IMG/VR virus record: IMGVR_UViG_3300028797_000100
Coordinates: 64,001 to 128,000 of that record
Length of the DNA: 64,000 bases
Strand: one strand, 5' to 3'
Source: a virus
Taxonomy: Duplodnaviria > Caudoviricetes
Positions within the stretch are counted from its first letter, which is position 1; every line of letters begins with the position of its first letter. Made by a program: the position numbers and the translations under genes. The notes under the pieces are model-generated. The model made no database searches. It had not been told where the DNA came from and worked only from the letters and a program-made list of their open reading frames with translations. Below, in pieces: positions 26,165 through 38,918 of the stretch.

Positions 26165-27610
26165 ATGATTGACAACTTATCAGGATTCTTAAACGAGTTA
26201 AAGATATATGTCGTTTGTGAATCAGGATACCTGACCATTGAAGAAATAATAGAGACGATGGTCAAAAAGAAAATGATATCGTTAGCAAGATATGATATCA
26301 GTCAAGTGAACTGTACGCTTATTCTGAATGATATCCAGGAACACATGCAGCGTTATACTGATGCGGAAGTAATGGCCTATTTCTTGAAATACATGTTTGA
26401 TTTCAAGAATGATAATATCTATAAACAGAAACTGTACAGCGTAGGCATAATCAATTGCGCAGATGTAAATATCAGACGTGTTGAGAGAATACATTTAAAT
26501 CTCAGACGTAGAATATTTGCACAACCAAAGTACACTAAAGAAACATTTGTTTTCATCAGTGATATCATTGGTAATGACAAATTCCGCGAAGCTGTCAAAG
26601 AATCTCAAACAGCACCAATGACAGTAAAAGAATTCATACATTATCATTTCAAGTGTTCATTATTAAATCATGATGGTACACTCGAAAAGATAAATAAGAT
26701 TAAAGATGTCATAACTGAAATCAAACCATTTGTGAAGTTCGTCAATACAGATGAATTCCCTTGGAATCTGTTGGTGGCTCTGAATAGAGATTATCACATC
26801 AATGTTTATCAGAAACTGTTGGATTTCTTGAGTGCAAATGGATTGACATTGAATGACATTATCGAAAAGCAAGATATAGCCACGGATGTATTCAAGTACA
26901 ATCTGTGTGCGTTTGTTCATATAAAGTCCAGAGTAGATGTTATCTCAGCAAAGTTCATTCACAATCTTCCTTTATCGGATATCAAAGTATCAAAGCTTAG
27001 TGATTCATCTATAAATGTATCCATCACAAGAATTAAACAGATATATGATGCAGCCATGAGATCAATGGTTGATGCTATAACTGACAACAGCAGATTCTTC
27101 TTTGATGGATTTGAGTTATTTGCAAAGAAACTCAAACCAGATGAGGTTGCAAATAGAATTATGCATGATACACTTCCTCCAAATATAATGGATATGTTGA
27201 TTGCTGTAATTCCTACAGCACCATATATGACATTGGAAGAATTGACATCCATAATTTACAATAACCCTCTCATACATCATGTTATTGTGTATGGATTTCT
27301 CAAGGGTGTTGTTGTTGCCAACCAGGAGCTTCGTGTCTCTCAGGGCATTAGTAGAACTCCTGTGATCCCTGAAGATGTGGCTGAACTGAACTTATCTCAG
27401 AGAGCAACAAATGCACTCATCAGAAGTGGTATACATAAAACTATAGATCTCATAACACTATCATACGATGACTTGCATAACGTAAGAAACATTGGTCAAA
27501 AGAGTTTCGATGAAATCATTGAGACATTAAAAATATATGGTGTTCACATCACCGACAAGGAGGATACTTCACATGAAAGTACGTTTAATTACACACACCC
27601 CAGATCCTGA
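26165..27610 (+). CDS. Protein with a C-terminal RNA polymerase alpha-CTD-like domain
   Basis: DVAELNLSQRATNALIRSGIHKTIDLITLSYDDLHNVRNIGQKSFDEIIETL matches the alpha-CTD pattern L.LS.R..N.L...GI....DL.......L....N.G.KS..EI. Confidence 0.8.
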   Translation: MIDNLSGFLNELKIYVVCESGYLTIEEIIETMVKKKMISLARYDISQVNCTLILNDIQEHMQRYTDAEVMAYFLKYMFDFKNDNIYKQKLYSVGIINCADVNIRRVERIHLNLRRRIFAQPKYTKETFVFISDIIGNDKFREAVKESQTAPMTVKEFIHYHFKCSLLNHDGTLEKINKIKDVITEIKPFVKFVNTDEFPWNLLVALNRDYHINVYQKLLDFLSANGLTLNDIIEKQDIATDVFKYNLCAFVHIKSRVDVISAKFIHNLPLSDIKVSKLSDSSINVSITRIKQIYDAAMRSMVDAITDNSRFFFDGFELFAKKLKPDEVANRIMHDTLPPNIMDMLIAVIPTAPYMTLEELTSIIYNNPLIHHVIVYGFLKGVVVANQELRVSQGISRTPVIPEDVAELNLSQRATNALIRSGIHKTIDLITLSYDDLHNVRNIGQKSFDEIIETLKIYGVHITDKEDTSHESTFNYTHPRS

Positions 27611-28346
27611 GCGAGTAATCGCAACAGCTGCAAAGCTGTGTTATTCTTCTTCGGATATCGAGTCTCTCCAAGAGGGACTCGATCCAGATAAGATTTACAA
27701 CTTTCTTTCAATGTTGACTGAGCTGGGACATGAAAGTCCGATGGAGCATGTTACATTCACCTTTGGAATCGAAGGTATCAGTAGAGCATGTAGTCATCAG
27801 TTAGTTCGTCATCGTATCGCTTCATACTCTCAGAAATCCCAGAGATATGTTAGCGAGAACCAGTTTGATTATGTCACACCACCAGACATCAAATTGGATG
27901 AAATGACAAAAGCTATATATGATGATACAATGGAACTTCTTCAGAGTCGTTATGAAATAATTCGTGATGCTCTCATCAAGAAACATGTTGAAGAAGGTAT
28001 GGAAAAGAAAGCTGCAGAAAAGAAAGCAAATGAAGATGCCAGAATGGTTCTTCCAAATGCTTGCGAGACTTCTATAATTGTGACAATGAACATTCGTTCA
28101 CTGTTCAATTTCTTTAAGCATCGTTGCTGCAATAGAGCTCAGTGGGAAATCCAGCAGCTTGCATTAGAGATGTATAAACTCTGTTTAGGTGTAGCTCCAA
28201 CTATCTTCCGCAATGCAGGTCCATCATGTGTTTCCAAGGGACAGTGTGGTGAAGGCCGCATGACTTGTGGTAAGGCAATGTTCATGAGAGGTATGTTTGC
28301 AGAAATGCATAAAGACGAATTATCGTTAAGAAGTGAAGAAGGGTGA
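27573..28346 (+). CDS. thyX: Flavin-dependent thymidylate synthase
   Basis: GHESPMEH, SRACSHQLVRHRIASYSQKSQRY, EDARMVLPN, RAQWEI. ATG at 27573 follows AAGGAGG. Confidence 0.96.
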   Translation: MKVRLITHTPDPERVIATAAKLCYSSSDIESLQEGLDPDKIYNFLSMLTELGHESPMEHVTFTFGIEGISRACSHQLVRHRIASYSQKSQRYVSENQFDYVTPPDIKLDEMTKAIYDDTMELLQSRYEIIRDALIKKHVEEGMEKKAAEKKANEDARMVLPNACETSIIVTMNIRSLFNFFKHRCCNRAQWEIQQLALEMYKLCLGVAPTIFRNAGPSCVSKGQCGEGRMTCGKAMFMRGMFAEMHKDELSLRSEEG

Positions 28347-30862: not shown

Positions 30863-31252
30863 TAATTAATCAAAATCTGCTACTATAATTTACATCGATA
30901 ATGAGAGGATGAATAATTCTCTCTTTATCATAGATTCTGGAAACGGAGAAATGGATGTGTATGAGTTCGGGAGATTCTCTACATAGACCACCGGAGTACA
31001 GAGCGTTCGGAAATGGCACCTTATACGAAATGGTGATTTTCGGTCAACTTCGCCAAAATAGTTAGCCACAGTCCGGACGTCTACAAAAGCCCGCCCTTCC
31101 TTATCTTGGGCGGGATTGCTTTCAATTCGTTTTATGAACGTATCCTCCGATATATGATACTTGAGTGAAGGTTTCGGTCATTAGTCCTTCACATCATAAA
31201 ACGATTGAAATATAATTATCCCATATCAAGCGCACATAGATATGGGATATAT

Positions 31253-31338
31253 GCCGAAGTGATGGAATGGTAGACTTGGCAGACTCAAAATCTGCTGTGA
31301 GCAATCACGTGTGGGTTCGAGTCCCACCTTCGGCACCA
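31253..31338 (+). tRNA. tRNA-Leu(CAA)
   Basis: GCCGAAG/CTTCGGC acceptor, GCAGA-CT-CAA-AA-TCTGC, long variable arm, T loop TTCGAGT, encoded CCA. Confidence 0.92.
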
Positions 31339-31339
31339 A

Positions 31340-31463
31340 TGATATTCGATGGGTGGTCCAAGAGAACGGTCGGAATGATTGATTTCGTTTCGTGGCAACA
31401 ATGAATATTGGATTATTCATTGGACGGGTTCAAGTCCCGTACGATCCTTCGAATATCACACCA
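31340..31463 (+). ncRNA. tRNA-like RNA with a T arm and extended terminal stem, no anticodon arm
   Basis: ACGGG-TTCAAGT-CCCGT T arm. GGGTGGT/ACGATCC stem extended by TGATATTCGA/TCGAATATCA. Ends CACCA. Confidence 0.5.
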
Positions 31464-31607
31464 ATGATATAGTGTACCTGTACATATCGGTCATGTTTCT
31501 TTGCCTGGGCATGACAGCACTTGCTTTCTCGGCTTATACTGCACCCATCTCTTCAGCGTCTAGGGTGTTATTCATGTGAATTCATAACAGTACACTATAT
31601 CATACCA
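31464..31607 (+). ncRNA. Unknown structured RNA closed by a long terminal stem
   Basis: ATGATATAGTGTAC...GTACACTATATCAT (14-bp perfect) followed by ACCA. Confidence 0.5.
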
Positions 31608-31848
31608 CCGGAGTTCTGGTATATCATAAATACAAACTAGAGGTACCCTAGTCATTCGTATTAGTTAATCCCCTAATCGACTTAGTATTTGTGATGAAGA
31701 AGTGCTTTACGTATGACCCAGATAAGGCGCTCCGGACCAGATGCTACTTTCGTTCCCACTTTAGTAGCATTTACTCATATGCGTGGCAGGAGCTTCCTCA
31801 ATTACTCCTGCCACACCCCCTAAAATAAATGAAAAGGAGTATTTAAAA

Positions 31849-32178
31849 ATGGAAAATGAGACTAAAAAGAATGATGACGGAATGGTTGAAATTGAGCTTG
31901 AACTTACACCAGAAGAACTTGAAGATCTGGAGAAGCGTGCTAAAGAACATAATATGACATTGGATGAATATTGTGTAGCATGTTGTAAAGTACCAGCGCA
32001 GATAAAAGCTGCTAAAAATCTCACCAATACAATTGATGAAGCACTTCAGTCGGAGAATTTATCCGATGAAGCTCGTAAATCACTTACTAATGTTAAGGAC
32101 GCAACAATGGCACTTGAGAAATATCTCAGTGGTGATATGTCCGAAGAAGAATTCAAAAATGCTATCAATTCCCTTTAA
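31849..32178 (+). CDS. Small protein, possible ribbon-helix-helix DNA-binding domain
   Basis: RBS GAAAAGGAG, ATG at 31849. IELELTPEELEDLEKRAKEHNMTLDEY. Confidence 0.6.
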   Translation: MENETKKNDDGMVEIELELTPEELEDLEKRAKEHNMTLDEYCVACCKVPAQIKAAKNLTNTIDEALQSENLSDEARKSLTNVKDATMALEKYLSGDMSEEEFKNAINSL

Positions 32179-32771
32179 TCGATAATAATGCACAATGTGC
32201 GTTACTATACCAGATAGAACAGTAGGCAACGTCATCAGAGTCGTTGATCCAAGAGCGCTTGGCCTGGATAACTCATCACTATCCTTTATCTGTTCTATAG
32301 AGTTTCATCACTTGTGATCGCTATTGGGATCCATACGGGATGTCTTGAAATGATATATAGCATTCTAGTAGATTCCTCTTATTATAGTTAAGGCTCTACC
32401 GGCAATCACACTTAGGGAGAGAGCTAACCCGCATGGACGTAAGCGTTATGGTAGATTTCGTTTACAATGTTCATGGTTGAAACTTATGATGCCTATGTCG
32501 GAGGCGGTGCTCAGTGCTAGAACGTTAAACCGTCGACGTTATAAAAATCCGCGTCCACACAAACGCGAAGAGGAGGACCGAGGGATTCGTCACCCCGGAG
32601 ATTATACATAGGATCAATATACGAATACTGTTGGAGATGTGGCCTGGTCGTTAGCGCCATCTAATCAAAAGAGTGTGTAGTAGTTTAAGTAATCCCAGAA
32701 CGTCTCAGTCGTGCGTCACATGTGAGCCGTTGAGAACGTTAGGAATGTAAAAACACCGACAGTATGTATAT

Positions 32772-32848
32772 CGAGGCGTAACTCAGTTTGGTAGAGTGCT
32801 TGGTTTGGGACCAAGATGCCGCAGGTTCGAGTCCTGTCGCCTCGACCA
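32772..32848 (+). tRNA. tRNA-Pro(TGG)
   Basis: CGAGGCG/CGCCTCG, CTTGG-TT-TGG-GA-CCAAG, CCA. Confidence 0.95.
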
Positions 32849-33067
32849 GTAGGAGAGTATTCATGGTAACCAAGGAACGGTTACGACATATCAGGCCATT
32901 ACCGCGTACGAGGTAATGTATGTTGGGTGATCCCCGTGGATATTCTTCTATTCCAGAGAAGCACGGATGGCCATGGGAGCCGCTCTAAGAGAGCTTAATG
33001 CGGTGCTTGAAAAATAATATGGGCCAGCCAGGGTGTGGTAGCTCCCTTCATCATCCTGGGCCTAGGC

Positions 33068-33144
33068 GGCTGGTTAGCTTAGATGGCTAAAGCATCCGGT
33101 TCATACCCGGAAGACCGTCAGTTCGAGTCTGACACCAGCTACCA
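33068..33144 (+). tRNA. tRNA-Met(CAT), elongator-like
   Basis: GGCTGGT/ACCAGCT, TCCGG-TT-CAT-AC-CCGGA, CCA. Confidence 0.93.
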
Positions 33145-33260
33145 GAAACCACAAGTAGCCGTGCTGTAGGTGGCAGGCGTGCTAGTTAACCAAAGAGCCG
33201 TACGACAATCTTGGTTCTTGCTGCATCGGTTCGAGTCCGTTCGCGGTTGCTTGTGGTTTC
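33145..33260 (+). ncRNA. Unknown RNA with a 17-bp terminal stem and T-loop-like arm
   Basis: GAAACCACAAGTAGCCG...CGGTTGCTTGTGGTTTC, with internal CGG-TTCGAGT-CCG. Confidence 0.5.
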
Positions 33261-33287
33261 ACATCCTTTCTATTTTTTATAAATTTG

Positions 33288-33307
33288 AGATATATATTTT
33301 TACTATG
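33288..33307 (+). promoter_or_regulatory. Putative early promoter for the tRNA/Y-like RNA/Ro cluster
   Basis: TTTCTATTTTTT...GAGATATATATTTTTACTATG, nearly identical to the element at 2844-2884. Confidence 0.55.
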
Positions 33308-33561
33308 TGATGGAACACAATTTATATATGTTCTCTATGGGTTCAAAGGATTTCCCTGTAGAGAACCACTTGCTCAGATATATGACGATGTTCGGCCAGC
33401 ACATCGTCATGGGGTGTTCGACTCACAGATGTATGAATGATGGATTGTTATATATCTCAACAAATAAATCCTGGTGGCTAGACGGGATTTCAAGTTCCTA
33501 CGCATGAATACATTTGGATGCATGTATTTATGAAGCAACGCCTTACAATCATCATTCATAT

Positions 33562-33636
33562 GGCGCTATGGTCAAGAGGTCAAGACATCTCCCTTTCACG
33601 GAGGGGTCCCGAGTTCGATTCTCGGTAGCGTCACCA
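33562..33636 (+). tRNA. tRNA-Glu(TTC)
   Basis: GGCGCTA/TAGCGTC, TCTCC-CT-TTC-AC-GGAGG, CCA. Confidence 0.95.
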
Positions 33637-33723
33637 AGCATGGATTCTTAAACCCGATCCATGTACAAACATCCTTAACTCGGCAGCATCATTTAGTCTT
33701 CCCTTCGTGGTGCTGCCATATAT

Positions 33724-33862
33724 GCGGCGATTAGCTCAGTTGGTAGAGCGTGTACGTACTGGTATGGTATTCTCATACACTTTGTGCATGATGCAGTTAT
33801 ATCAGTTACTTCGAGCTAGTGGACTCCAAGGTCGTAGGTTCGAATCCTGCATCGCCGCCTCA
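33724..33862 (+). ncRNA. Y-RNA-like/tRNA chimera 1 (tRNA ends, Y-like helix inserted after the D arm)
   Basis: GCGGCGAT/ATCGCCGC acceptor, D arm GCTC-AGTTGGTA-GAGC, T arm GTAGG-TTCGAAT-CCTGC. The insert carries TTCTCAT...TGATGCAG...TTACTTCG. Confidence 0.75.
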
Positions 33863-33866
33863 ATTT

Positions 33867-33943
33867 GCCTGGTTAGCTCAGTTGGTAGTAGCGACGGACT
33901 GTTAATCCGTGTGTCGTAGGTTCAAGTCCTACACTAGGCGCCA
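33867..33943 (+). tRNA. tRNA-Asn(GTT)
   Basis: GCCTGGT/ACTAGGC, ACGGA-CT-GTT-AA-TCCGT, CCA. Confidence 0.95.
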
Positions 33944-33944
33944 A

Positions 33945-34096
33945 TTAAACATAAACGATGCAGTAGCGTTCGGTTACTTCGCTTAACCTGTCACGTTAAA
34001 AACGATCCAAGAGTTCGAATCTCTTCATAGTCCTACGGGCTGTGCTGGTCATTGGTGAGACCATAACCCGAATGCATTTTTCTCGTTTATGTTTAA
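33945..34096 (+). ncRNA. YrlA-like Y RNA 2 with an Asp(GTC) anticodon arm
   Basis: Terminal stem TTAAACATAAACGA/TCGTTTATGTTTAA, CGATGCAG..TTACTTCG, TTAAC-CT-GTC-AC-GTTAA, T arm AAGAG-TTCGAAT-CTCTT, looped acceptor stem, D arm GGTC-ATTGGTGA-GACC. Confidence 0.8.
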
Positions 34097-34098
34097 AT

Positions 34099-34174
34099 GG
34101 ATCTGTAGCTCAGTTGGTAGAGCAGTGGTCTGAAGAACCACGTGTCGGTTGTTCGATTCAACCCAGGTCCACCA
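34099..34174 (+). tRNA. tRNA-Phe(GAA)
   Basis: GGATCTG/CAGGTCC, GTGGT-CT-GAA-GA-ACCAC, CCA. Confidence 0.95.
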
Positions 34175-34184
34175 ATTTAAATAT

Positions 34185-34328
34185 GGGGGAGTATCCAAAT
34201 TGGTTAAAACCCGTTGTCAGTTTTCTCAGAGTAATCTGATGCAGTAGGTAACGGATACTTCGGAATTAGAATGTAAATCTAACGCTTTGCAAAAGCTATG
34301 CAGGTTCGAGTCCTGTCCTCCCCCACCA
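34185..34328 (+). ncRNA. tRNA-Tyr(GTA)-like RNA with a Y-like helix inserted in the D loop (chimera 3)
   Basis: GGGGGAG/CTCCCCC-A-CCA, D stem TCC/GGA, TTAGA-AT-GTA-AA-TCTAA, long variable arm, T arm. Insert CCGTTG..TTCTCAGA-GTAA-TCTGATGCAG..AACGG-ATACTTC. Confidence 0.78.
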
Positions 34329-34333
34329 AATAC

Positions 34334-34410
34334 GGTCCTGTAGTTCAAATGGTTAGAGCACCTGCCTGTCACGCAGGAAGTTGTCAGTTCAAGTCTGATC
34401 AGGATCGCCA
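34334..34410 (+). tRNA. tRNA-Asp(GTC)
   Basis: GGTCCTG/CAGGATC, CCTGC-CT-GTC-AC-GCAGG, CCA. Confidence 0.95.
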
Positions 34411-34412
34411 GA

Positions 34413-34580
34413 TAATACTATTAACGATGCAGTCGATGTGAGTTACTTCGAAAGTGACATCAAGCAGATATGGGAGTTCGAGTCTCTCTGCCGCATTCTT
34501 CATGGATACGGTATGGCGGAATTGGCAGACGCATTACCTAGAAATTAAAACTCACGTCAATATTCTCGTTAATAGTATTA
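34413..34580 (+). ncRNA. YrlA-like Y RNA 4
   Basis: Terminal stem TAATACTATTAACGA/TCGTTAATAGTATTA, CGATGCAG..TTACTTCG, T arm GGGAG-TTCGAGT-CTCTC, looped acceptor, Leu-type D arm GCG-GAATTGGCAGA-CGC. Confidence 0.8.
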
Positions 34581-34584
34581 ATAT

Positions 34585-34672
34585 GGATGAGTATGCCCAG
34601 TTGGCGAAGGCAGCGGACTGTAAATCCGTGACATTAGAAACAACGTAGGTTCGACTCCTACCTCATCCACCA
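34585..34672 (+). tRNA. tRNA-Tyr(GTA)
   Basis: GGATGAG/CTCATCC, GCGGA-CT-GTA-AA-TCCGT, long variable arm, CCA. Confidence 0.93.
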
Positions 34673-34811
34673 ATACGAATGAAGCAGCCGGTGTGAGTTA
34701 CTTCCAAAATGTTAAAAGTTCAAGTCTTTTGTTAGCCTTCTCTGCTAATTAGCTCAACTGGGTAGAGCGTTTGGCCCTATAGACTCCACCATTATTCTCA
34801 TTCGTATACCA
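34673..34811 (+). ncRNA. YrlA-like Y RNA 5
   Basis: Terminal stem ATACGAATGA/TCATTCGTAT plus ACCA, TGAAGCAG..TTACTTC, T arm AAAAG-TTCAAGT-CTTTT, looped acceptor GTTAGC/GCTAAT, D arm GCTC-AACTGGGTA-GAGC. Confidence 0.8.
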
Positions 34812-34813
34812 AT

Positions 34814-34952
34814 AAAGGACTGAAGCAGCCGATGCGGTTACTTCGATAGACAAGTGGTAAAGTCAATGATCTGCAACATCATCAACGTTGGTTCAAGTCC
34901 AACTCGATCCCTATGGGATATGCGACCGCATCAATATTCTCAGTCCTTTCCA
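34814..34952 (+). ncRNA. Y-like RNA 6 enclosing a tRNA-Cys(GCA) body
   Basis: Terminal stem AAAGGACTGA/TCAGTCCTTT plus CCA. TGAAGCAG..TTACTTCG is followed by D arm GAC-AAGTGGTAAA-GTC, ATGAT-CT-GCA-AC-ATCAT and T arm GTTGG-TTCAAGT-CCAAC. Confidence 0.8.
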
Positions 34953-34983
34953 TATTTATTTCAATCATAAGGAGGTAAATAAC

Positions 34984-36696
34984 ATGAGTCGTATTTCAGA
35001 TATGGCGAAGAAAATGACAGAAAATCAGAAACTTAAACCTGATGAAGTGGTTAAAAACTTCATGGGAGGAGATAGCTACAAGCTTAATCCTCTTGATACT
35101 TTAAAGATGATTGCTGCATCATCGATATTTGGTGAACCTTCGTACTATAGAAAGAACATCTCTGATGCTACTTTCGAAGTAGACGATTCAACCTTTGAAG
35201 ATGACGAGATTGTCACAAAGGATTACAACAACAAGAGCACAACCGAAATCTTCCAGGAAGCTATCGATAAAGCTCTTGACTATAACTTCTCTGCAACACT
35301 CAAGCTTGCAGTTGAGTTGAGACATGACTACTACATGAGGTTGAATCCTCAGGTAATCATGGTTAGAGCTGCCATCCATCCTAAGCGGAAGGAGTGGTCT
35401 GAGAAACATCCCGGTGAGTTCAACAAAATCAATGCGGAGGTTATGCTTCGTGCTGATGAACCTGCTGCTCAGTGTTCATATTATTTGTTTATAAACGGAG
35501 GAAAGAAGTCAGCAATGCCTTCTATTCTTAAACGTTCAATCGCTTCCAGGATTTCCAATCTTGGTCGTTATCAGGTAAACAAATATAAAAACTCAGATCT
35601 CGGAATGATCAATACAGTTCGTCTTACGCATGCTAATTCACCAATCGTGGATGAGCTTATGAAGACTGGTACTGTCGAGGTTAAAAACGAGGATGAGACA
35701 TGGGAGCAGAAACGTTCTGCTGGACTGTCTTGGAAAGAAATTCTTGCTACAACTAAGATGGGTCATATGGCTCTCCTTAGAAATATCAAGAATGTTTTCA
35801 CTGAGATTAATGACCTCGAATTCTGTAAAGCTTACATGGCTGACCTGAAGGATGGGGTTATTGATGGTAAACAGTTCCCATATCGTTATGAGGCTGCTTA
35901 CACCAGACTCAAGAACGAGAAAGGTGTACATCATCTTTCAACAATTCTCGACGGGCTTGAGGAGTGTATCGACATCTCTGTCGAGAATCTTCCTAAGCTC
36001 AAGGGTACAACTGTATGTCTTTCTGACAATAGTGGTTCCGCTTGGGGTGCTCTCACTTCAGAATATGGTTCTACAACAGTTGCTCATATCGATAACTTAT
36101 CATCTGTAATTGCTGCTCAGTGTAGTGATGAAGGATATGTTATCAAGTTCGGTGACAGATATGAGGAGTATCCTATTTCGCACAGAAATGGTGTCCTCAA
36201 ACAAGCATCCGAAATTGACAAAAATGGCTACGACATTGTCGGTGGACACACTGAAGGAGGAATCTGGAAGTGGTTCAAGAGAGCTATCAATGAGAGAATC
36301 AAGGTGGACAACATCTTCATCTTCTCTGATATGCAGGCAGGTTGTGGTGGTCTGTATGGTACCATCGAAGACATTAGAGAATACCGTGAAGCTTACGGCT
36401 ATCGGTATGGACAGATGAGTAGATGGAGACATCGTGGAAGCAGATGCAATCTGTATGATATGATAAACGTATACAAGCTTGTACTTGACTACAGAAAGAA
36501 AGTTAACCCCAAGGTTAACGTCTTCTGTGTTCAGACAGCAGGCTATGACAACGTTGTTATACCTCAGATGACATATAGATGTGCAATGCTCACAGGATGG
36601 ACTGGTAAGGAAATTCTGTTTGCGAAAGAGTATATAAAACAATGGGATGACATTGAGTGGAAGAACACTTCTCCTCATGAGTCTCCCAACAACTAA
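34984..36696 (+). CDS. rsr: Ro60/Rsr-like TROVE-domain ribonucleoprotein with a C-terminal vWA domain
   Basis: NFMGGDSYKLNP..GEPSYY, LAVELRHDYYMRLNPQV, MGHMALLRN, KQFPYRY, MIDAS-like SDNSGS..T..FSDMQ. ATG at 34984 follows AAGGAGG. Confidence 0.9.
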   Translation: MSRISDMAKKMTENQKLKPDEVVKNFMGGDSYKLNPLDTLKMIAASSIFGEPSYYRKNISDATFEVDDSTFEDDEIVTKDYNNKSTTEIFQEAIDKALDYNFSATLKLAVELRHDYYMRLNPQVIMVRAAIHPKRKEWSEKHPGEFNKINAEVMLRADEPAAQCSYYLFINGGKKSAMPSILKRSIASRISNLGRYQVNKYKNSDLGMINTVRLTHANSPIVDELMKTGTVEVKNEDETWEQKRSAGLSWKEILATTKMGHMALLRNIKNVFTEINDLEFCKAYMADLKDGVIDGKQFPYRYEAAYTRLKNEKGVHHLSTILDGLEECIDISVENLPKLKGTTVCLSDNSGSAWGALTSEYGSTTVAHIDNLSSVIAAQCSDEGYVIKFGDRYEEYPISHRNGVLKQASEIDKNGYDIVGGHTEGGIWKWFKRAINERIKVDNIFIFSDMQAGCGGLYGTIEDIREYREAYGYRYGQMSRWRHRGSRCNLYDMINVYKLVLDYRKKVNPKVNVFCVQTAGYDNVVIPQMTYRCAMLTGWTGKEILFAKEYIKQWDDIEWKNTSPHESPNN

Positions 36697-36703
36697 TTGA
36701 TAG

Positions 36704-36879
36704 AAACCGCCTATGATGCAGCGGTCAGTGTTACTTCTGAATTTTAAATTGATTATTTAAAACATTCATTCCCCGGTTGTAGTTAAACATTCAAGCCGAT
36801 GGTATACTTGTATATCGCGTTTAACACAGAGGCGCTGGGCAAACACATATACACTGATGAATATTCTCATAGGCGGTTT
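36704..36879 (+). ncRNA. Y-like RNA 7 with a non-tRNA internal domain
   Basis: Terminal stem AAACCGCCTATGA/TCATAGGCGGTTT, TGATGCAG..TCAGTGT-TACTTC and ACACTGA..ATTCTCA. Starts 8 nt after the Ro stop codon. Confidence 0.75.
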
Positions 36880-37037
36880 TATATGTGCTCTGAGAGGTAG
36901 TCCCCTCAAGGAGCGCTCCGAAGTTCTACAAATCAAAAAGTTTCATTTAACCTCTCGGGCCCTACTTGGGCCCATACTCTTTTTTTTTATTTTAAACAGC
37001 TCTGTAATTTATAACATTATAAAGGAGATGTTAAATT

Positions 37038-38765
37038 ATGAATATTACTAATGAGATTTTATTTGCTATAGATAATATATACGAGGAGCAGTACAGAGCA
37101 AACAGTAATGTTGCTGAATCATTGTTGAGTGTATATGACAAACAGCAAATGATTCTTGAAAGTTGTGAAGATATGATGGATCTTCCAGATATACCCATCA
37201 TGGAAGCTGATTATACATTCATGGCTGCAGACCTTGGTCAGAAAGAAAAGAAGTCAAATATCTTCCAGACTATATGGAATGCTATTAAGAATTTCTTCAA
37301 GATGTTAGCTGACAAGGTTAAATCGTTGATTGATAGAATTACTTCCAAAGGTGAGACTCCTGGGGGATATCAATCATGTAACAGTGTACTGTTGAAACTT
37401 TTATCCAAGTCCAAAGCTAACATACCTGATGATATTGATAGCTACAAAATTCCTACAGTAAACCCAAAGTATCTTCATAAAGACTTCGTTGAGGAATCGT
37501 ATATTGAAGAATATCATGACGTAATGACTGAAGATGACTTCATCATGGAATCTGGAGATACAACAAAATATATTACAGTACAAATTCCTGTTGGTAACGG
37601 TTCAACATTCTATCCAAAAACAATCAAAGTCCCTAACAATGATATTCTTGCCGTATTTGATAATGATGAAAAGTCTATCACATTCCATGTATCCGGTTTT
37701 GGTAAATGGACTGATATCAGTATCAACAGAACTGGTGATACTACTGGTTCTTCTGAAATCACTGGTACAAAGAAACCATGGTTTGGTGATGCAAAAATAC
37801 CATTGTATCTGATAACAAATCGTGAAGCTCTTGACAAGCTCATTGAGTTGTCTAATCTTGCCACAGCAATTCTTATTGAGAAGAAAGAAAAGCACGTAAA
37901 GTTATTCAACCATAGAATCAAGGGTATCATCGATGATATCGAGAAGAATGCTAAGAAGATTAAGATGAACAAGTATGCTGTTTCATTGAAAGATCTCACA
38001 TATTTCCAGAAGGCTTTGAACAAGATCAATTATAAATTGGATCAGTATGCAAACATCAATACAGATGTATCATCTTTAGATAAACATACTATAGAAAATC
38101 TTTCTTACTTAACAAGCAAGATGATTAGATACCAGATAGCATTCAATATGATTACATCATCTCTCAATGATAACTACATAGTGGATGCTAAATTCATTGG
38201 TTGTATTAGAAGCGTTGCTTTGCTTGACCAGTTTGTTGCAACATGTATAAAACAGGGTCTTCCTCCAAAATACATCGCATATAATACATGGCTTGTTGCT
38301 GATCAATGCATCAAGGGTTCAAAGAATGACTACAAACCTGTATGGGGTCAGACTAGATTCATCTTCTTCCCACCAGGAGGCCGTGTAGTTTATAAGATTG
38401 CCATGACAGGTTCTGGTATAACATCCAATAAAGCAGAAGATCGTACATCTGATCTGTTTGTTAAGATGGATAGAGTTGATCTGATTGCTCCTGTATGTAA
38501 GGTATGGCCTGCAAATGCAATTATTGCTATGGAGCGTGTAGACAATGAAGAGAAGCCGTCATATCCAGCATTGATGTCATATACAAAACGTGTCAATGAT
38601 GTTATTGAAGATTATGAAAGATCACACAATCTCCATCTCAACATTGACATATCCGACCAGCATAAAGACAATATCAAGTATGATAAGAAATATGGTTGCT
38701 ATAGATCTATCGACTATGGTATTGCGAACAGAGTTTATCGTAAACCTGAAAAGAAAAAGAAGTAA
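37038..38765 (+). CDS. Probable virion protein with a C-terminal protein-kinase-like domain
   Basis: WGQTRF, VVYKIA, SNKAE, IAMERV, SDQHKDNI, SIDYG. Paralog of 54650-56266. Confidence 0.65.
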   Translation: MNITNEILFAIDNIYEEQYRANSNVAESLLSVYDKQQMILESCEDMMDLPDIPIMEADYTFMAADLGQKEKKSNIFQTIWNAIKNFFKMLADKVKSLIDRITSKGETPGGYQSCNSVLLKLLSKSKANIPDDIDSYKIPTVNPKYLHKDFVEESYIEEYHDVMTEDDFIMESGDTTKYITVQIPVGNGSTFYPKTIKVPNNDILAVFDNDEKSITFHVSGFGKWTDISINRTGDTTGSSEITGTKKPWFGDAKIPLYLITNREALDKLIELSNLATAILIEKKEKHVKLFNHRIKGIIDDIEKNAKKIKMNKYAVSLKDLTYFQKALNKINYKLDQYANINTDVSSLDKHTIENLSYLTSKMIRYQIAFNMITSSLNDNYIVDAKFIGCIRSVALLDQFVATCIKQGLPPKYIAYNTWLVADQCIKGSKNDYKPVWGQTRFIFFPPGGRVVYKIAMTGSGITSNKAEDRTSDLFVKMDRVDLIAPVCKVWPANAIIAMERVDNEEKPSYPALMSYTKRVNDVIEDYERSHNLHLNIDISDQHKDNIKYDKKYGCYRSIDYGIANRVYRKPEKKKK

Positions 38766-38843
38766 TTATATGGGGGCTATATGCCCCCATATTTTTATTA
38801 TCTAAATATATATTATTATTACGGAGAACAAAGGAAATAATAT

Positions 38844-38918
38844 TGGGGCATAGCCAAGTGGTAAGGCACAGGACTTTGACTCCTGCACCCGTGGGTTCAA
38901 ATCCCGCTGCCCCAACCA
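38844..38918 (+). tRNA. tRNA-Gln(TTG)
   Basis: TGGGGCA/TGCCCCA, CAGGA-CT-TTG-AC-TCCTG, CCA. An early-type motif lies upstream (38804-38823). Confidence 0.95.

What the first reader, a model, noticed from the sequence alone, without database searches (positions are those of the whole stretch)
34185..34328. tRNA-Tyr with a putative Ro-binding helix grafted into its D loop
Seen: a complete cloverleaf (acceptor GGGGGAG/CTCCCCC, discriminator A, CCA, GTA anticodon arm, long variable arm, T arm). About 55 nt containing the Y-like module in permuted order (TTCTCAGA-GTAA-TCTGATGCAG...TACTTC) lies between GGTTAA and the 3' D-stem strand. The anticodon loop has an unusual A at position 32. A normal tRNA-Tyr lies about 260 nt downstream. 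YrlA RNAs normally have their ends in the Ro helix and a closed acceptor stem, whereas this RNA could be aminoacylated. Inference: a Ro-tethered chargeable tRNA, or a decoy for Tyr-specific anticodon nucleases or TyrRS.
Basis: partly seen in the sequence, partly recalled or inferred. Interest (0 to 1): 0.8.

Follow-up and report, generated by a model that had tools for sequence, protein, structure and literature searches.

The report
tRNA-Tyr-shaped Y RNA beside phage Ro60
A large phage of gut or rumen bacteria carries, in its tRNA array next to a Ro60 gene, a conserved RNA gene built as a complete tyrosine tRNA with a CCA end. A hairpin copy of the phage's Y-RNA docking motif sticks out of its D-arm side, a layout I did not find in print.

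Summary
Window 34185-34328 (+) encodes a tRNA-Tyr(GUA) cloverleaf: 7-bp acceptor, A73, encoded CCA, long variable arm and T arm. A 51-nt hairpin (34211-34261) interrupts it between the D loop and the 3' D-stem strand. That hairpin is the same module (8-bp stem, 7x7 internal loop, lower stem, then UACUUC) found in six other RNAs around the phage's Ro60/TROVE gene. Here a GUAA loop closes it, whereas most sister RNAs have their ends in it.

ARAGORN and Rfam miss the intact gene. With the module deleted in silico, ARAGORN calls tRNA-Tyr.

Nine further distinct versions lie in related metagenomic phage contigs, and compensatory changes occur in most helices. All ten keep GUA, A73, CCA and an odd extra C after the T stem. 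A32 is specific to this phage.

My best reading is a YrlA-type Y RNA in tRNA topology, matured like a tRNA and docking phage Ro60. Ro binding, charging and a decoy role are untested.

A second permuted class, with a tRNA-His-like acceptor, lies at 33724-33862. Earlier notes of this scan reported tRNA-shaped Y RNAs on other DNA with the anticodon replaced. This one keeps its anticodon arm.

The parts
34185..34328 (+). The whole RNA gene: a tRNA-Tyr(GUA)-shaped Y RNA, 144 nt including the encoded CCA
   Evidence: Sequence. It lies 10 nt after tRNA-Phe and 5 nt before tRNA-Asp. Nine further distinct versions exist.
34185..34191 (+). Acceptor stem, 5' strand (pairs with 34318-34324)
   Evidence: 7 of 7 pairs in 10 of 10 versions. 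Pairs 3 and 4 show G-C to A-U double changes.
34194..34210 (+). D-stem 5' strand UCC plus a D loop with G18 G19
   Evidence: UCC pairs with GGA at 34262-34264 in all 4 versions of this sub-type, with no variation. N15:N48 is A:U in this sub-type and G:C in the other.
34211..34261 (+). Hairpin-closed Y-type module: 8-bp upper stem, 7x7 internal loop (AGUUUUC / UGCAGUA), 5-bp lower stem with GUAA loop, then AUACUUC
   Evidence: The same module occurs 7 times near the Ro gene. The consensus comes from 91 copies in 13 loci. The lower stem is 4-8 bp with different sequences and loops in nine of the ten versions (3 bp, then a C-A mismatch, in L135).
34262..34264 (+). D-stem 3' strand GGA
   Evidence: Complementary to 34194-34196. 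The base at 10:25 is U-A here and G-C in the other sub-type.
34266..34282 (+). Anticodon arm with a 7-nt loop AUGUAAA (anticodon GUA at 34273-34275, A32)
   Evidence: The stem has compensatory changes at 3 of 5 pairs within the sub-type. GUA is invariant in 10 of 10 and C32 occurs in the other nine.
34284..34296 (+). Long variable arm (5-bp stem, loop GCA)
   Evidence: Sequence. A variable arm is present in all versions but differs in sequence and length.
34300..34316 (+). T arm with loop UUCGAGU
   Evidence: 5 of 5 pairs in 10 of 10 versions, with double changes at pairs 2 and 3.
34317..34317 (+). Extra unpaired C between the T stem and the acceptor 3' strand
   Evidence: Present in 10 of 10 versions. 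Absent from the phage's normal tRNA-Tyr.
34318..34328 (+). Acceptor 3' strand, A73 and encoded CCA
   Evidence: Invariant ACCA tail in 10 of 10 versions.
34975..36696 (+). Phage Ro60/Rsr (TROVE plus a DxSxS motif), the presumed protein partner
   Evidence: Pfam TROVE E 1.8e-4. A family profile hits Thermus phage phiLo Ro60 (9KOP/9L5Y) at E 2.5e-12. Thousands of metagenomic homologues exist.
34585..34672 (+). Ordinary tRNA-Tyr(GUA) of the same phage
   Evidence: ARAGORN and Rfam tRNA, 52.1 bits.
33724..33862 (+). Second tRNA-topology Y RNA: G-1 plus 7-bp acceptor plus C73, a normal D arm, and a hairpin-closed module where the anticodon arm would be
   Evidence: Sixteen copies occur in related loci.
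33945..34096 (+). Ordinary-topology Y RNA (ends in the module) with a looped acceptor and an anticodon-type loop CUGUCAC identical to that of tRNA-Asp
   Evidence: ARAGORN mis-calls part of it as tRNA-Asp.
34416..34575 (+). Ordinary-topology Y-like RNA
34676..34810 (+). Ordinary YrlA-like RNA (T arm, looped acceptor, D arm)
   Evidence: Weak Rfam YrlA match, 29.6 bits against a gathering score of 69.
34815..34950 (+). Ordinary-topology Y RNA that encloses a tRNA-Cys-like body
   Evidence: Rfam tRNA 47.2 bits and an ARAGORN 'tRNA-Cys' call inside it.
36704..36879 (+). Seventh module-bearing RNA, just after the Ro stop codon and followed by a terminator-like hairpin at 36957-36973

Best explanation
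**What it is**
This is a Y RNA of the YrlA kind written in tRNA topology. It is a single 144-nt chain whose 5' and 3' ends lie in a tRNA-Tyr acceptor stem. The helix that carries the phage's conserved Y-RNA motif is closed into a hairpin and projects from the junction of the D arm and the anticodon stem.

**Shown**
- The cloverleaf and the module are present.
- Both are conserved and covary in ten phage lineages.
- The gene sits in register within a tRNA array beside a Ro60 gene.

**Inferred, in order of decreasing confidence**
1. It is transcribed with the array and cut out like its tRNA neighbours: RNase P at the 5' end and trimming to the encoded CCA.
2. The module stays in the mature RNA and is the docking site of the phage Ro60.
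3. The particle couples Ro60 to a tRNA-Tyr look-alike with a free CCA end and a true anticodon loop. Factors that read tRNA-Tyr can therefore engage it. Candidates are TyrRS, anticodon-loop modification enzymes and tRNA-Tyr-cleaving defence nucleases.
4. The conserved bulged C beside a G49-U65 pair may keep it out of normal translation.

I rank a role as Ro-bound tRNA-Tyr mimic, adaptor or decoy above a role as a decoding tRNA.
For: **Anatomy**
- Read directly from the sequence.
- In silico deletion of the module gives ARAGORN tRNA-Tyr(gta) in 5 of 5 versions, and the intact sequence gives no call.

**Conservation**
- Ten distinct versions come from separate metagenomes whose Ro proteins are 70-95% identical where a Ro gene was looked up.
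- Under the proposed structure, 100% and 96% of cells pair, against 37-53% in slid controls.
- Five and six pairs carry double changes, against 0-2 in slid controls.
- Lower stems have different lengths and loops (GUAA, GAUA, UUCG and others).
- The tertiary 15:48 pair is A:U in one sub-type and G:C in the other.

**tRNA-like placement**
- Spacers to the flanking tRNAs are 10 nt and 5 nt.
- CCA is encoded, as in its neighbours.

**Link to Ro**
- All seven modules of the 163.7-kb record lie within 1.2 kb upstream and 0.2 kb downstream of the TROVE gene, on its strand.
- Thirteen related Ro loci hold 91 modules.
- Three of three records found by the RNA pattern alone encode a Ro homologue.

**Precedent**
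- M. smegmatis YrlA is opened by RNase P in its acceptor loop and receives CCA in vivo (PMC4201824).
- A phage Ro60 binds phage Y-like RNAs and host PNPase in vitro (PMC12135203).
Against: - No expression, end-mapping, Ro-binding or charging data exist.
- The module does not carry the published YrlA motif GNCGAAN0-1G.
- Rfam YrlA does not match it. The only overlapping match, 18.4 bits against a gathering score of 69 at 34299-34359, covers the T arm and runs into the next tRNA.
- The Ro assignment therefore rests on neighbourhood and architecture only.
- The D stem of this sub-type is 3 bp and never varies within the sub-type.
- The single-sequence fold is only modestly better than shuffles, z = -2.05.
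- Four of the sampled Ro-gene neighbourhoods, and two further related loci, showed no such gene within the DNA fetched.
Confidence: 0.6

Rival explanations
1. It is a working tRNA-Tyr used in translation. The module is a tolerated appendage, for example one that lets Ro60 shield the phage's tRNA-Tyr from host nucleases.
For: The TyrRS identity features as I recall them (A73, G1-C72, G34 and U35, long variable arm) are invariant in 10 of 10 versions, together with the encoded CCA. One relative (L135) shows no ordinary tRNA-Tyr in the region fetched. Phage tRNA-Tyr is known to rescue infection from a tRNA-Tyr-cleaving retron system (PMC11555353).
Against: Most phages that carry it also keep an ordinary tRNA-Tyr nearby. 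There is a conserved extra C at the acceptor/T junction beside a G49-U65 pair. A helix of 50-70 nt sits at the D/anticodon junction. In the second sub-type the first anticodon-stem pair is a G-G mismatch.
Confidence: 0.12
2. The conserved module is not a Ro60 site. It binds another protein or is a processing signal shared by all RNAs of the array, and its closeness to the Ro gene is only linkage.
For: The module lacks the GNCGAAN0-1G motif and is not matched by Rfam YrlA. The Ro protein is itself divergent, below the Pfam cut-off. Nothing here tests binding.
Against: The modules flank the Ro gene on both sides, one starting 8 nt after its stop codon. Three of three records found by RNA pattern alone have Ro. 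The overall design is that of YrlA: a long stem with a conserved internal loop plus a tRNA-like domain (10.1101/312249).
Confidence: 0.12
3. The module is removed or cut after transcription. It would then be an intron-like insert that yields a normal tRNA-Tyr, or cleavage in the GUAA loop would give a two-piece RNA.
For: Deleting the insert in silico gives a sequence that ARAGORN accepts as tRNA-Tyr. Wang et al. raised the idea that some YrlA RNAs might be processed towards canonical tRNAs (10.1101/312249). M. smegmatis YrlA exists as two pieces.
Against: The internal-loop sequence is conserved as strictly as in the six sister RNAs, which cannot be introns. I saw no bulge-helix-bulge or group I features in the insert. 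No RtcB was found in the 61%-complete record. The extra C would remain in the product.
Confidence: 0.08
4. It is an accident: a tRNA-Tyr gene disrupted by a duplicated Y module, now decaying.
For: None beyond the fact that tRNA detectors miss it.
Against: Ten lineages keep every helix through compensatory changes, and all keep GUA, A73 and CCA.
Confidence: 0.02

Closest known systems
YrlA (Y RNA-like A; Rfam RF02553; Chen et al. 2014, PMC4201824; structure in Wang et al. 2018, 10.1101/312249)
   Same: A small RNA encoded next to, and on the same strand as, a Ro60/Rsr gene. [quoted passage not shown]
   Different: In YrlA the 5' and 3' ends lie in the Ro helix, the acceptor is a closed loop, and there is no anticodon loop and no CCA. 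Here the ends are in the acceptor with A73 and CCA, a real GUA anticodon arm and a long variable arm are present, and a tetraloop closes the helix. The motif is YGAWGCAGU...GWUACUUC, not GNCGAAN0-1G.
Mycobacterium smegmatis YrlA after processing (PMC4201824)
   Same: It is a Ro-bound Y RNA whose acceptor stem is open and ends in CCA. Those authors raised possible aminoacylation.
   Different: That RNA becomes two pieces through RNase P cleavage of a closed loop, and it has no anticodon arm. The RNA here is one chain, encoded in tRNA order.
tRNA-shaped Y RNAs noted earlier in this scan on other phage DNA (notes e1-5762250 and e1-5753165), and the second class in this window (33724-33862)
   Same: They have tRNA ends and a hairpin-closed Ro-type helix, and they lie beside a phage Ro60 gene.
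   Different: In those RNAs the helix replaces the anticodon arm. In this one the anticodon arm is kept and the helix leaves from the D-arm side.
Chargeable tRNA mimics: tmRNA and the TYMV 3' tRNA-like structure
   Same: They have a tRNA-like L-shape with a free CCA end, joined to a non-tRNA module.
   Different: Those have no Ro partner. tmRNA lacks an anticodon arm. Charging is proven for them and untested here.
Phage tRNA-Tyr as counter-defence (T5 tRNA-Tyr against Retron-Eco7 PtuAB, PMC11555353)
   Same: It is a phage-encoded tRNA-Tyr species additional to the host's.
   Different: That one is an ordinary tRNA that replaces cleaved host tRNA. No defence test exists for the RNA here.
Circularly permuted tRNA genes of red algae and one archaeon (cited in 10.1101/312249)
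   Same: They show a permutation relationship between two gene orders of one tRNA fold.
   Different: Those are precursors that are re-joined into normal tRNAs. Here both orders coexist in one array as apparently final products.

Membership tests
YrlA (RF02553) | Reaches the Rfam gathering score (69 bits) | tested here: not met
   No YrlA match covers the element. The only overlapping match is 18.4 bits at 34299-34359, on the T arm and running into the next tRNA.
YrlA (RF02553) | GNCGAAN0-1G motif on the 5' strand of the Ro helix | tested here: not met
   The motif is absent from all seven modules of the window. Its three matches in 31000-37000 lie in two tRNAs and the Ro ORF. The motif here is YGAWGCAGU.
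YrlA (RF02553) | 5' and 3' ends pair to form the Ro-binding stem, and the acceptor-like stem is a closed loop | tested here: not met
   The stem is closed by a GUAA loop, and the ends lie in the acceptor with ACCA.
YrlA (RF02553) | Domain with tRNA-type D and T arms and tertiary-contact nucleotides | tested here: met
   U8, G18 G19, a UUCGA T loop and 15:48 covariation are present.
YrlA (RF02553) | Encoded within about 4 kb of the Ro60 gene on the same strand | tested here: met
   It ends 646 nt upstream of the Ro start codon, on the same strand.
Y RNA (functional definition) | Bound by Ro60 in vivo | not testable with these tools
   There is only co-location. Three of three pattern-found records encode Ro.
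tRNA-Tyr | Recognised as a tRNA by standard detectors | tested here: not met
   ARAGORN and Rfam tRNA do not call the intact sequence. ARAGORN calls tRNA-Tyr(gta) only after the module is deleted in silico.
tRNA-Tyr | 7-bp acceptor, A73, CCA, 7-nt anticodon loop with U33 and GUA, and a long variable arm (bacterial type II) | tested here: met
   All are present and invariant or covarying in 10 of 10 versions.
tRNA-Tyr | Acceptor and T stems directly abut (no nucleotide between positions 65 and 66) | tested here: not met
   An extra C is present in 10 of 10 versions.
tRNA-Tyr | Aminoacylated by TyrRS and used by the ribosome | not testable with these tools
No TyrRS or CCA-adding enzyme gene was found in the record.

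The most novel reading that the evidence does not exclude
These phages make aminoacylatable Y RNAs. The site where the Ro-docking helix is placed would be chosen to spare the synthetase identity set.
- In the Tyr type the anticodon arm, the long variable arm and A73 are all kept, and the helix leaves from the D-arm side.
- In the sister class the acceptor has G-1:C73, the tRNA-His identity mark as I recall it, so the anticodon arm can be given up to the helix.

Ro60 would then carry charged, or deliberately uncharged, tRNA look-alikes with free CCA ends that are kept off the ribosome by the bulged C. Possible uses are titrating tRNA-cleaving defence nucleases, or manipulating host sensors of tRNA charging such as T-box leaders in a Firmicute host.
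Probability: 0.25. Interest if true: 0.85.

Novelty: new variant of a known kind. Interest (0 to 1): 0.7.

Why it matters
- YrlA-type Y RNAs are described as tRNA mimics that lack exactly the two features that let a tRNA act: a free CCA end and an anticodon loop. This gene has both, in a conserved family sitting next to ordinary-topology sisters in one array.
- That gives a natural permutation series bearing on the proposal that YrlA arose from tRNAs (10.1101/312249).
- It also makes a long-open question directly testable with one RNA: which tRNA-binding factors does the tRNA-like domain of a Y RNA talk to?
- If the RNA is charged, or is recognised by tRNA-Tyr-specific nucleases, Ro60 particles would be linked to the phage-host conflict over tRNAs.
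- tRNA finders miss such genes, so phage tRNA arrays may hold many more.

Tried and rejected
**Searches that added no relatives**
- GenBank phage collection, blastn: only ordinary tRNA matches and no relative of the chimera.
- IMG/VR pattern scans specific for the Tyr type: no further copy.
Only L073 was real.

**A misleading result**
- The same idea in species-representative bacterial genomes gave 59 hits.
- About 30 of them (29 by my count) were one conserved stretch, probably coding, mostly in Lachnospiraceae.
- Only two hits (L160 and L181) showed a hairpin-closed module with a tRNA-like flank, both on MAG contigs. Both genome records encode Ro.

**Methods that did not help**
- RNAalifold on the mixed ten-sequence MAFFT alignment gave a poor consensus, because the two sub-types are misaligned around the module. 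I therefore parsed the helices by anchors and counted pairs per sub-type.
- RNAalifold suggested pairing of GCAG, or of GGAUAC, with the anticodon loop. I reject this, because the same motifs are invariant in modules attached to other anticodons.

**Ideas dropped or not settled**
- An 8-bp acceptor to absorb the extra C fails, because the partner would be U8.
- RtcB, a CCA-adding enzyme and TyrRS were not found in the record. The record is only about 61% complete, so absence is weak evidence.

Full report
**Setting**

The window is bases 64001-128000 of a 163.7-kb viral record, estimated to be about 61% complete. Bases 31253-38918 (+) hold a dense array of tRNA genes. The array surrounds an ORF at 34975-36696.

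- The ORF's product gives a borderline Pfam TROVE match, E 1.8e-4.
- A profile of its family hits the solved Ro60 of Thermus phage phiLo (9KOP/9L5Y) at E 2.5e-12.
- It has thousands of metagenomic homologues, several on contigs of 160-285 kb.
- Record names of the relatives, one homologue named from a Ruminococcus MAG, and a module-bearing contig binned as Ruminococcus point to rumen or gut Firmicutes as hosts. This is inference.

**The observation**

- The acceptor is GGGGGAG/CTCCCCC, followed by A73 and CCA.
- U8 A9 and the D-stem strand UCC follow the acceptor. The D loop carries GG.
- The anticodon arm is TTAGA-ATGTAAA-TCTAA, with a 5-bp variable arm and a T arm.

Between the D loop and GGA, the 3' D-stem strand, lies a 51-nt element at 34211-34261.

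- It has an 8-bp stem, CCGTTGTC/GGTAACGG.
- It has a symmetric 7x7 internal loop, AGTTTTC/TGCAGTA.
- It has a 5-bp stem closed by GTAA, followed by ATACTTC.

The motif pair GCAG...TACTTC occurs 9 times in the window against 2.1 expected, and none of 100 shuffles reach 9. Seven of these lie on the + strand between 33793 and 36737. They are the only such cluster in the whole record.

[quoted passage not shown] In two, the strands follow each other in the order 3' strand, loop, 5' strand. These two are the finding and 33724-33862. 'Permuted order' is therefore accurate.

There are three corrections.

- One extra C (34317) separates the T stem from the acceptor 3' strand.
- A32 is not a family feature.
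- The insertion point is inside the D loop only in this sub-type.

**Is it a tRNA shape?**

ARAGORN and the Rfam tRNA model do not call the intact sequence. I deleted the module in silico over a grid of boundaries. ARAGORN then called tRNA-Tyr(gta) in the window and in four relatives. For the three versions of the window's sub-type, no other identity was called.

The gene sits in the array exactly as a tRNA gene does. It starts 10 nt after the CCA of tRNA-Phe and ends 5 nt before tRNA-Asp, and it has an encoded CCA like its neighbours. A promoter-like site with 11 of 12 matches precedes the array at 31188-31216. A terminator-like hairpin follows the last module at 36957-36973. These are consensus matches only.

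**Conservation**

I fetched the DNA around close Ro homologues and ran one metagenome pattern scan. This gave nine further distinct versions. There are two sub-types.

- **B1** (window, L132, L135, L152): the D stem UCC...GGA is split by the module.
- **B2** (L141, L148, L157, L155, L144, L145): the D arm GCC...GGC is closed. It closely resembles the D arm of bacterial tRNA-Tyr as I recall it. The module follows after a short spacer.

All ten keep a 7-bp acceptor, A73, CCA, GUA in a 7-nt loop, a variable arm, the T arm and the extra C.

Helix by helix:

- Acceptor pairs 3 and 4 switch from G-C to A-U.
- T-stem pairs 2 and 3 switch.
- Anticodon-stem pairs 1-4 vary with pairing kept. The exception is a G-G at pair 1 in four B2 versions.
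- Upper-stem pairs 6 and 7 vary.
- The lower stem is 4-8 bp of unrelated sequence, closed by GUAA, GAUA, UUCG and other loops. L135 has one C-A mismatch.

On the tool's counts, 100% (B1) and 96% (B2) of cells pair, against 37-53% when partners are slid. Five and six pairs have changes on both sides, against 0-2 in the slid controls. The covariation score exceeds all or all but one of 500 shuffles.

With four and six related sequences these numbers are indicative, not a formal test. The D stem of B1 never varies, so within B1 it is supported only by complementarity. Between sub-types, pair 10:25 is U-A versus G-C. The tertiary 15:48 pair is A:U in B1 and G:C in B2, as expected for an L-shaped tRNA fold.

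It is therefore answered in favour of the finding.

**Is the module a Ro site?**

This is inferred, not shown.

For:
- All modules of the record flank the Ro gene on its strand.
- Thirteen related loci hold 91 modules with the consensus Y-G-A-W-GCAG-U...G-W-UACUUC.
- Three of three records found by the RNA pattern alone encode a Ro homologue, 58-64% identical.
- The design is that of YrlA: a long helix with a conserved internal loop plus a tRNA-like domain.
- A phage Ro60 has been shown to bind phage Y-like RNAs (PMC12135203).

Against:
- The published motif GNCGAAN0-1G is absent.
- Rfam YrlA matches only the tRNA-like part of one sister RNA, at 29.6 bits.

**Comparison with the literature**

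Chen et al. 2014 and Wang et al. 2018 describe YrlA as a tRNA mimic with its ends in the Ro helix, a looped acceptor, no anticodon loop and no CCA. They note that it resembles a circularly permuted tRNA. They also report that M. smegmatis YrlA is opened by RNase P and receives CCA.

The RNA here is the one-chain counterpart of that processed form, and it adds a complete anticodon arm. My full-text searches found no description of Y RNAs in tRNA topology. The library does not hold subscription-only papers.

Earlier notes of this scan (e1-5762250, e1-5753165) reported tRNA-shaped Y RNAs beside phage Ro60 on other DNA, with the anticodon loop replaced by the hairpin. I see that class here too, at 33724-33862, with 16 copies in relatives. 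It has a G before the 7-bp acceptor in 15 of 16 copies, C73 in 15 of 16, and CCA in 10 of 16. G-1:C73 is the tRNA-His acceptor signature as I recall it. The Tyr type differs from that class in keeping its anticodon arm.

**Mechanism**

My best-supported account, at about 0.6, is this. The RNA is made with the array and matured like a tRNA. It folds as an L-shaped tRNA-Tyr body and keeps the module, which docks the phage Ro60.

Whether it is charged is open.

- In favour of charging: the TyrRS identity features as I recall them are invariant.
- Against an ordinary decoding role: the conserved bulged C next to a G49-U65 pair, the large helix at the hinge, and the presence of an ordinary tRNA-Tyr in most of these phages.

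The sister RNAs carry conserved anticodon-type loops. CUGUCAC is identical to the phage's tRNA-Asp loop, and CUGCAA(C/A) is a Cys-type loop. This suggests that anticodon-reading factors are among the targets of this RNA family.

That fits a decoy or adaptor role in the conflict over tRNAs. Known examples of that conflict are tRNA-Tyr cleavage by Retron-Eco7 and anticodon-loop variation in phage tRNAs. Nothing here tests such a role.

The record encodes no RtcB, CCA-adding enzyme or TyrRS that I could find. Any such steps would therefore use host enzymes.

**Verdict**

- This is a new variant of a known kind (YrlA-type Y RNA).
- It is of clear interest to RNA and phage biologists, because it puts a free CCA end and a true anticodon on a Ro-associated RNA.

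Noticed in passing
window 33724-33862, and 16 copies in L011, L073, L132, L135, L138, L141, L142, L144, L146, L148, L150 and L152: A second class of tRNA-topology Y RNA. It has a normal D arm, a hairpin-closed module where the anticodon arm would be, and a T arm. A G precedes the 7-bp acceptor in 15 of 16 copies, the discriminator is C in 15 of 16, and CCA follows in 10 of 16. This is the G-1:C73 pattern of tRNA-His. ARAGORN finds no ordinary tRNA-His in the window.
   Followed up: partly
window 33945-34096 and 34815-34950: Two ordinary-topology Y-like RNAs carry anticodon-type stem-loops that are conserved in relatives. One is CUGUCAC, identical to the phage's tRNA-Asp loop. The other is CUGCAAC, a Cys-type loop. 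One relative (L135) has CUUUCAC instead, which is a Glu-type loop. ARAGORN's 'tRNA-Asp' at 33954-34033, its 'tRNA-Cys' at 34840-34911, and the Rfam tRNA hit at 34843-34907 all lie inside these RNAs, so they are probably not free-standing tRNAs.
   Followed up: partly
window 33945-34096, compared with 34185-34328: The Asp-type RNA has the same order of parts as the Tyr-type gene once it is read from its looped acceptor. That includes a C directly after the T stem, which there pairs as an eighth acceptor pair. The two look like circular permutations of one design.
   Followed up: no
L011:2574-2710 (related 258-kb phage record): An ordinary-topology Y-like RNA with its ends in the module. It contains a D arm and an anticodon arm with the same unusual AUGUAAA loop (A32, GUA) as the window's chimera.
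   Followed up: no
window 36704-36879: A seventh module-bearing RNA starts 8 nt after the Ro stop codon. It encloses about 110 nt without obvious tRNA arms and is followed by a terminator-like hairpin at 36957-36973.
   Followed up: no
window 26165-27607 and 27537-28343: Upstream genes include a protein with an RNA polymerase alpha C-terminal domain (E 1.5e-16) and a ThyX thymidylate synthase (E 1.4e-71).
   Followed up: no
L158, L165, L174, L176, L185, L187 and about 25 other loci from bacterial genomes, mostly Lachnospiraceae: A 54-nt stretch, apparently in one conserved gene, matches the loose module pattern by coincidence (ATTCTCCAT...GATGCAGTT...ATTACTTC). It is a trap for pattern-based searches for these RNAs.
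   Followed up: partly
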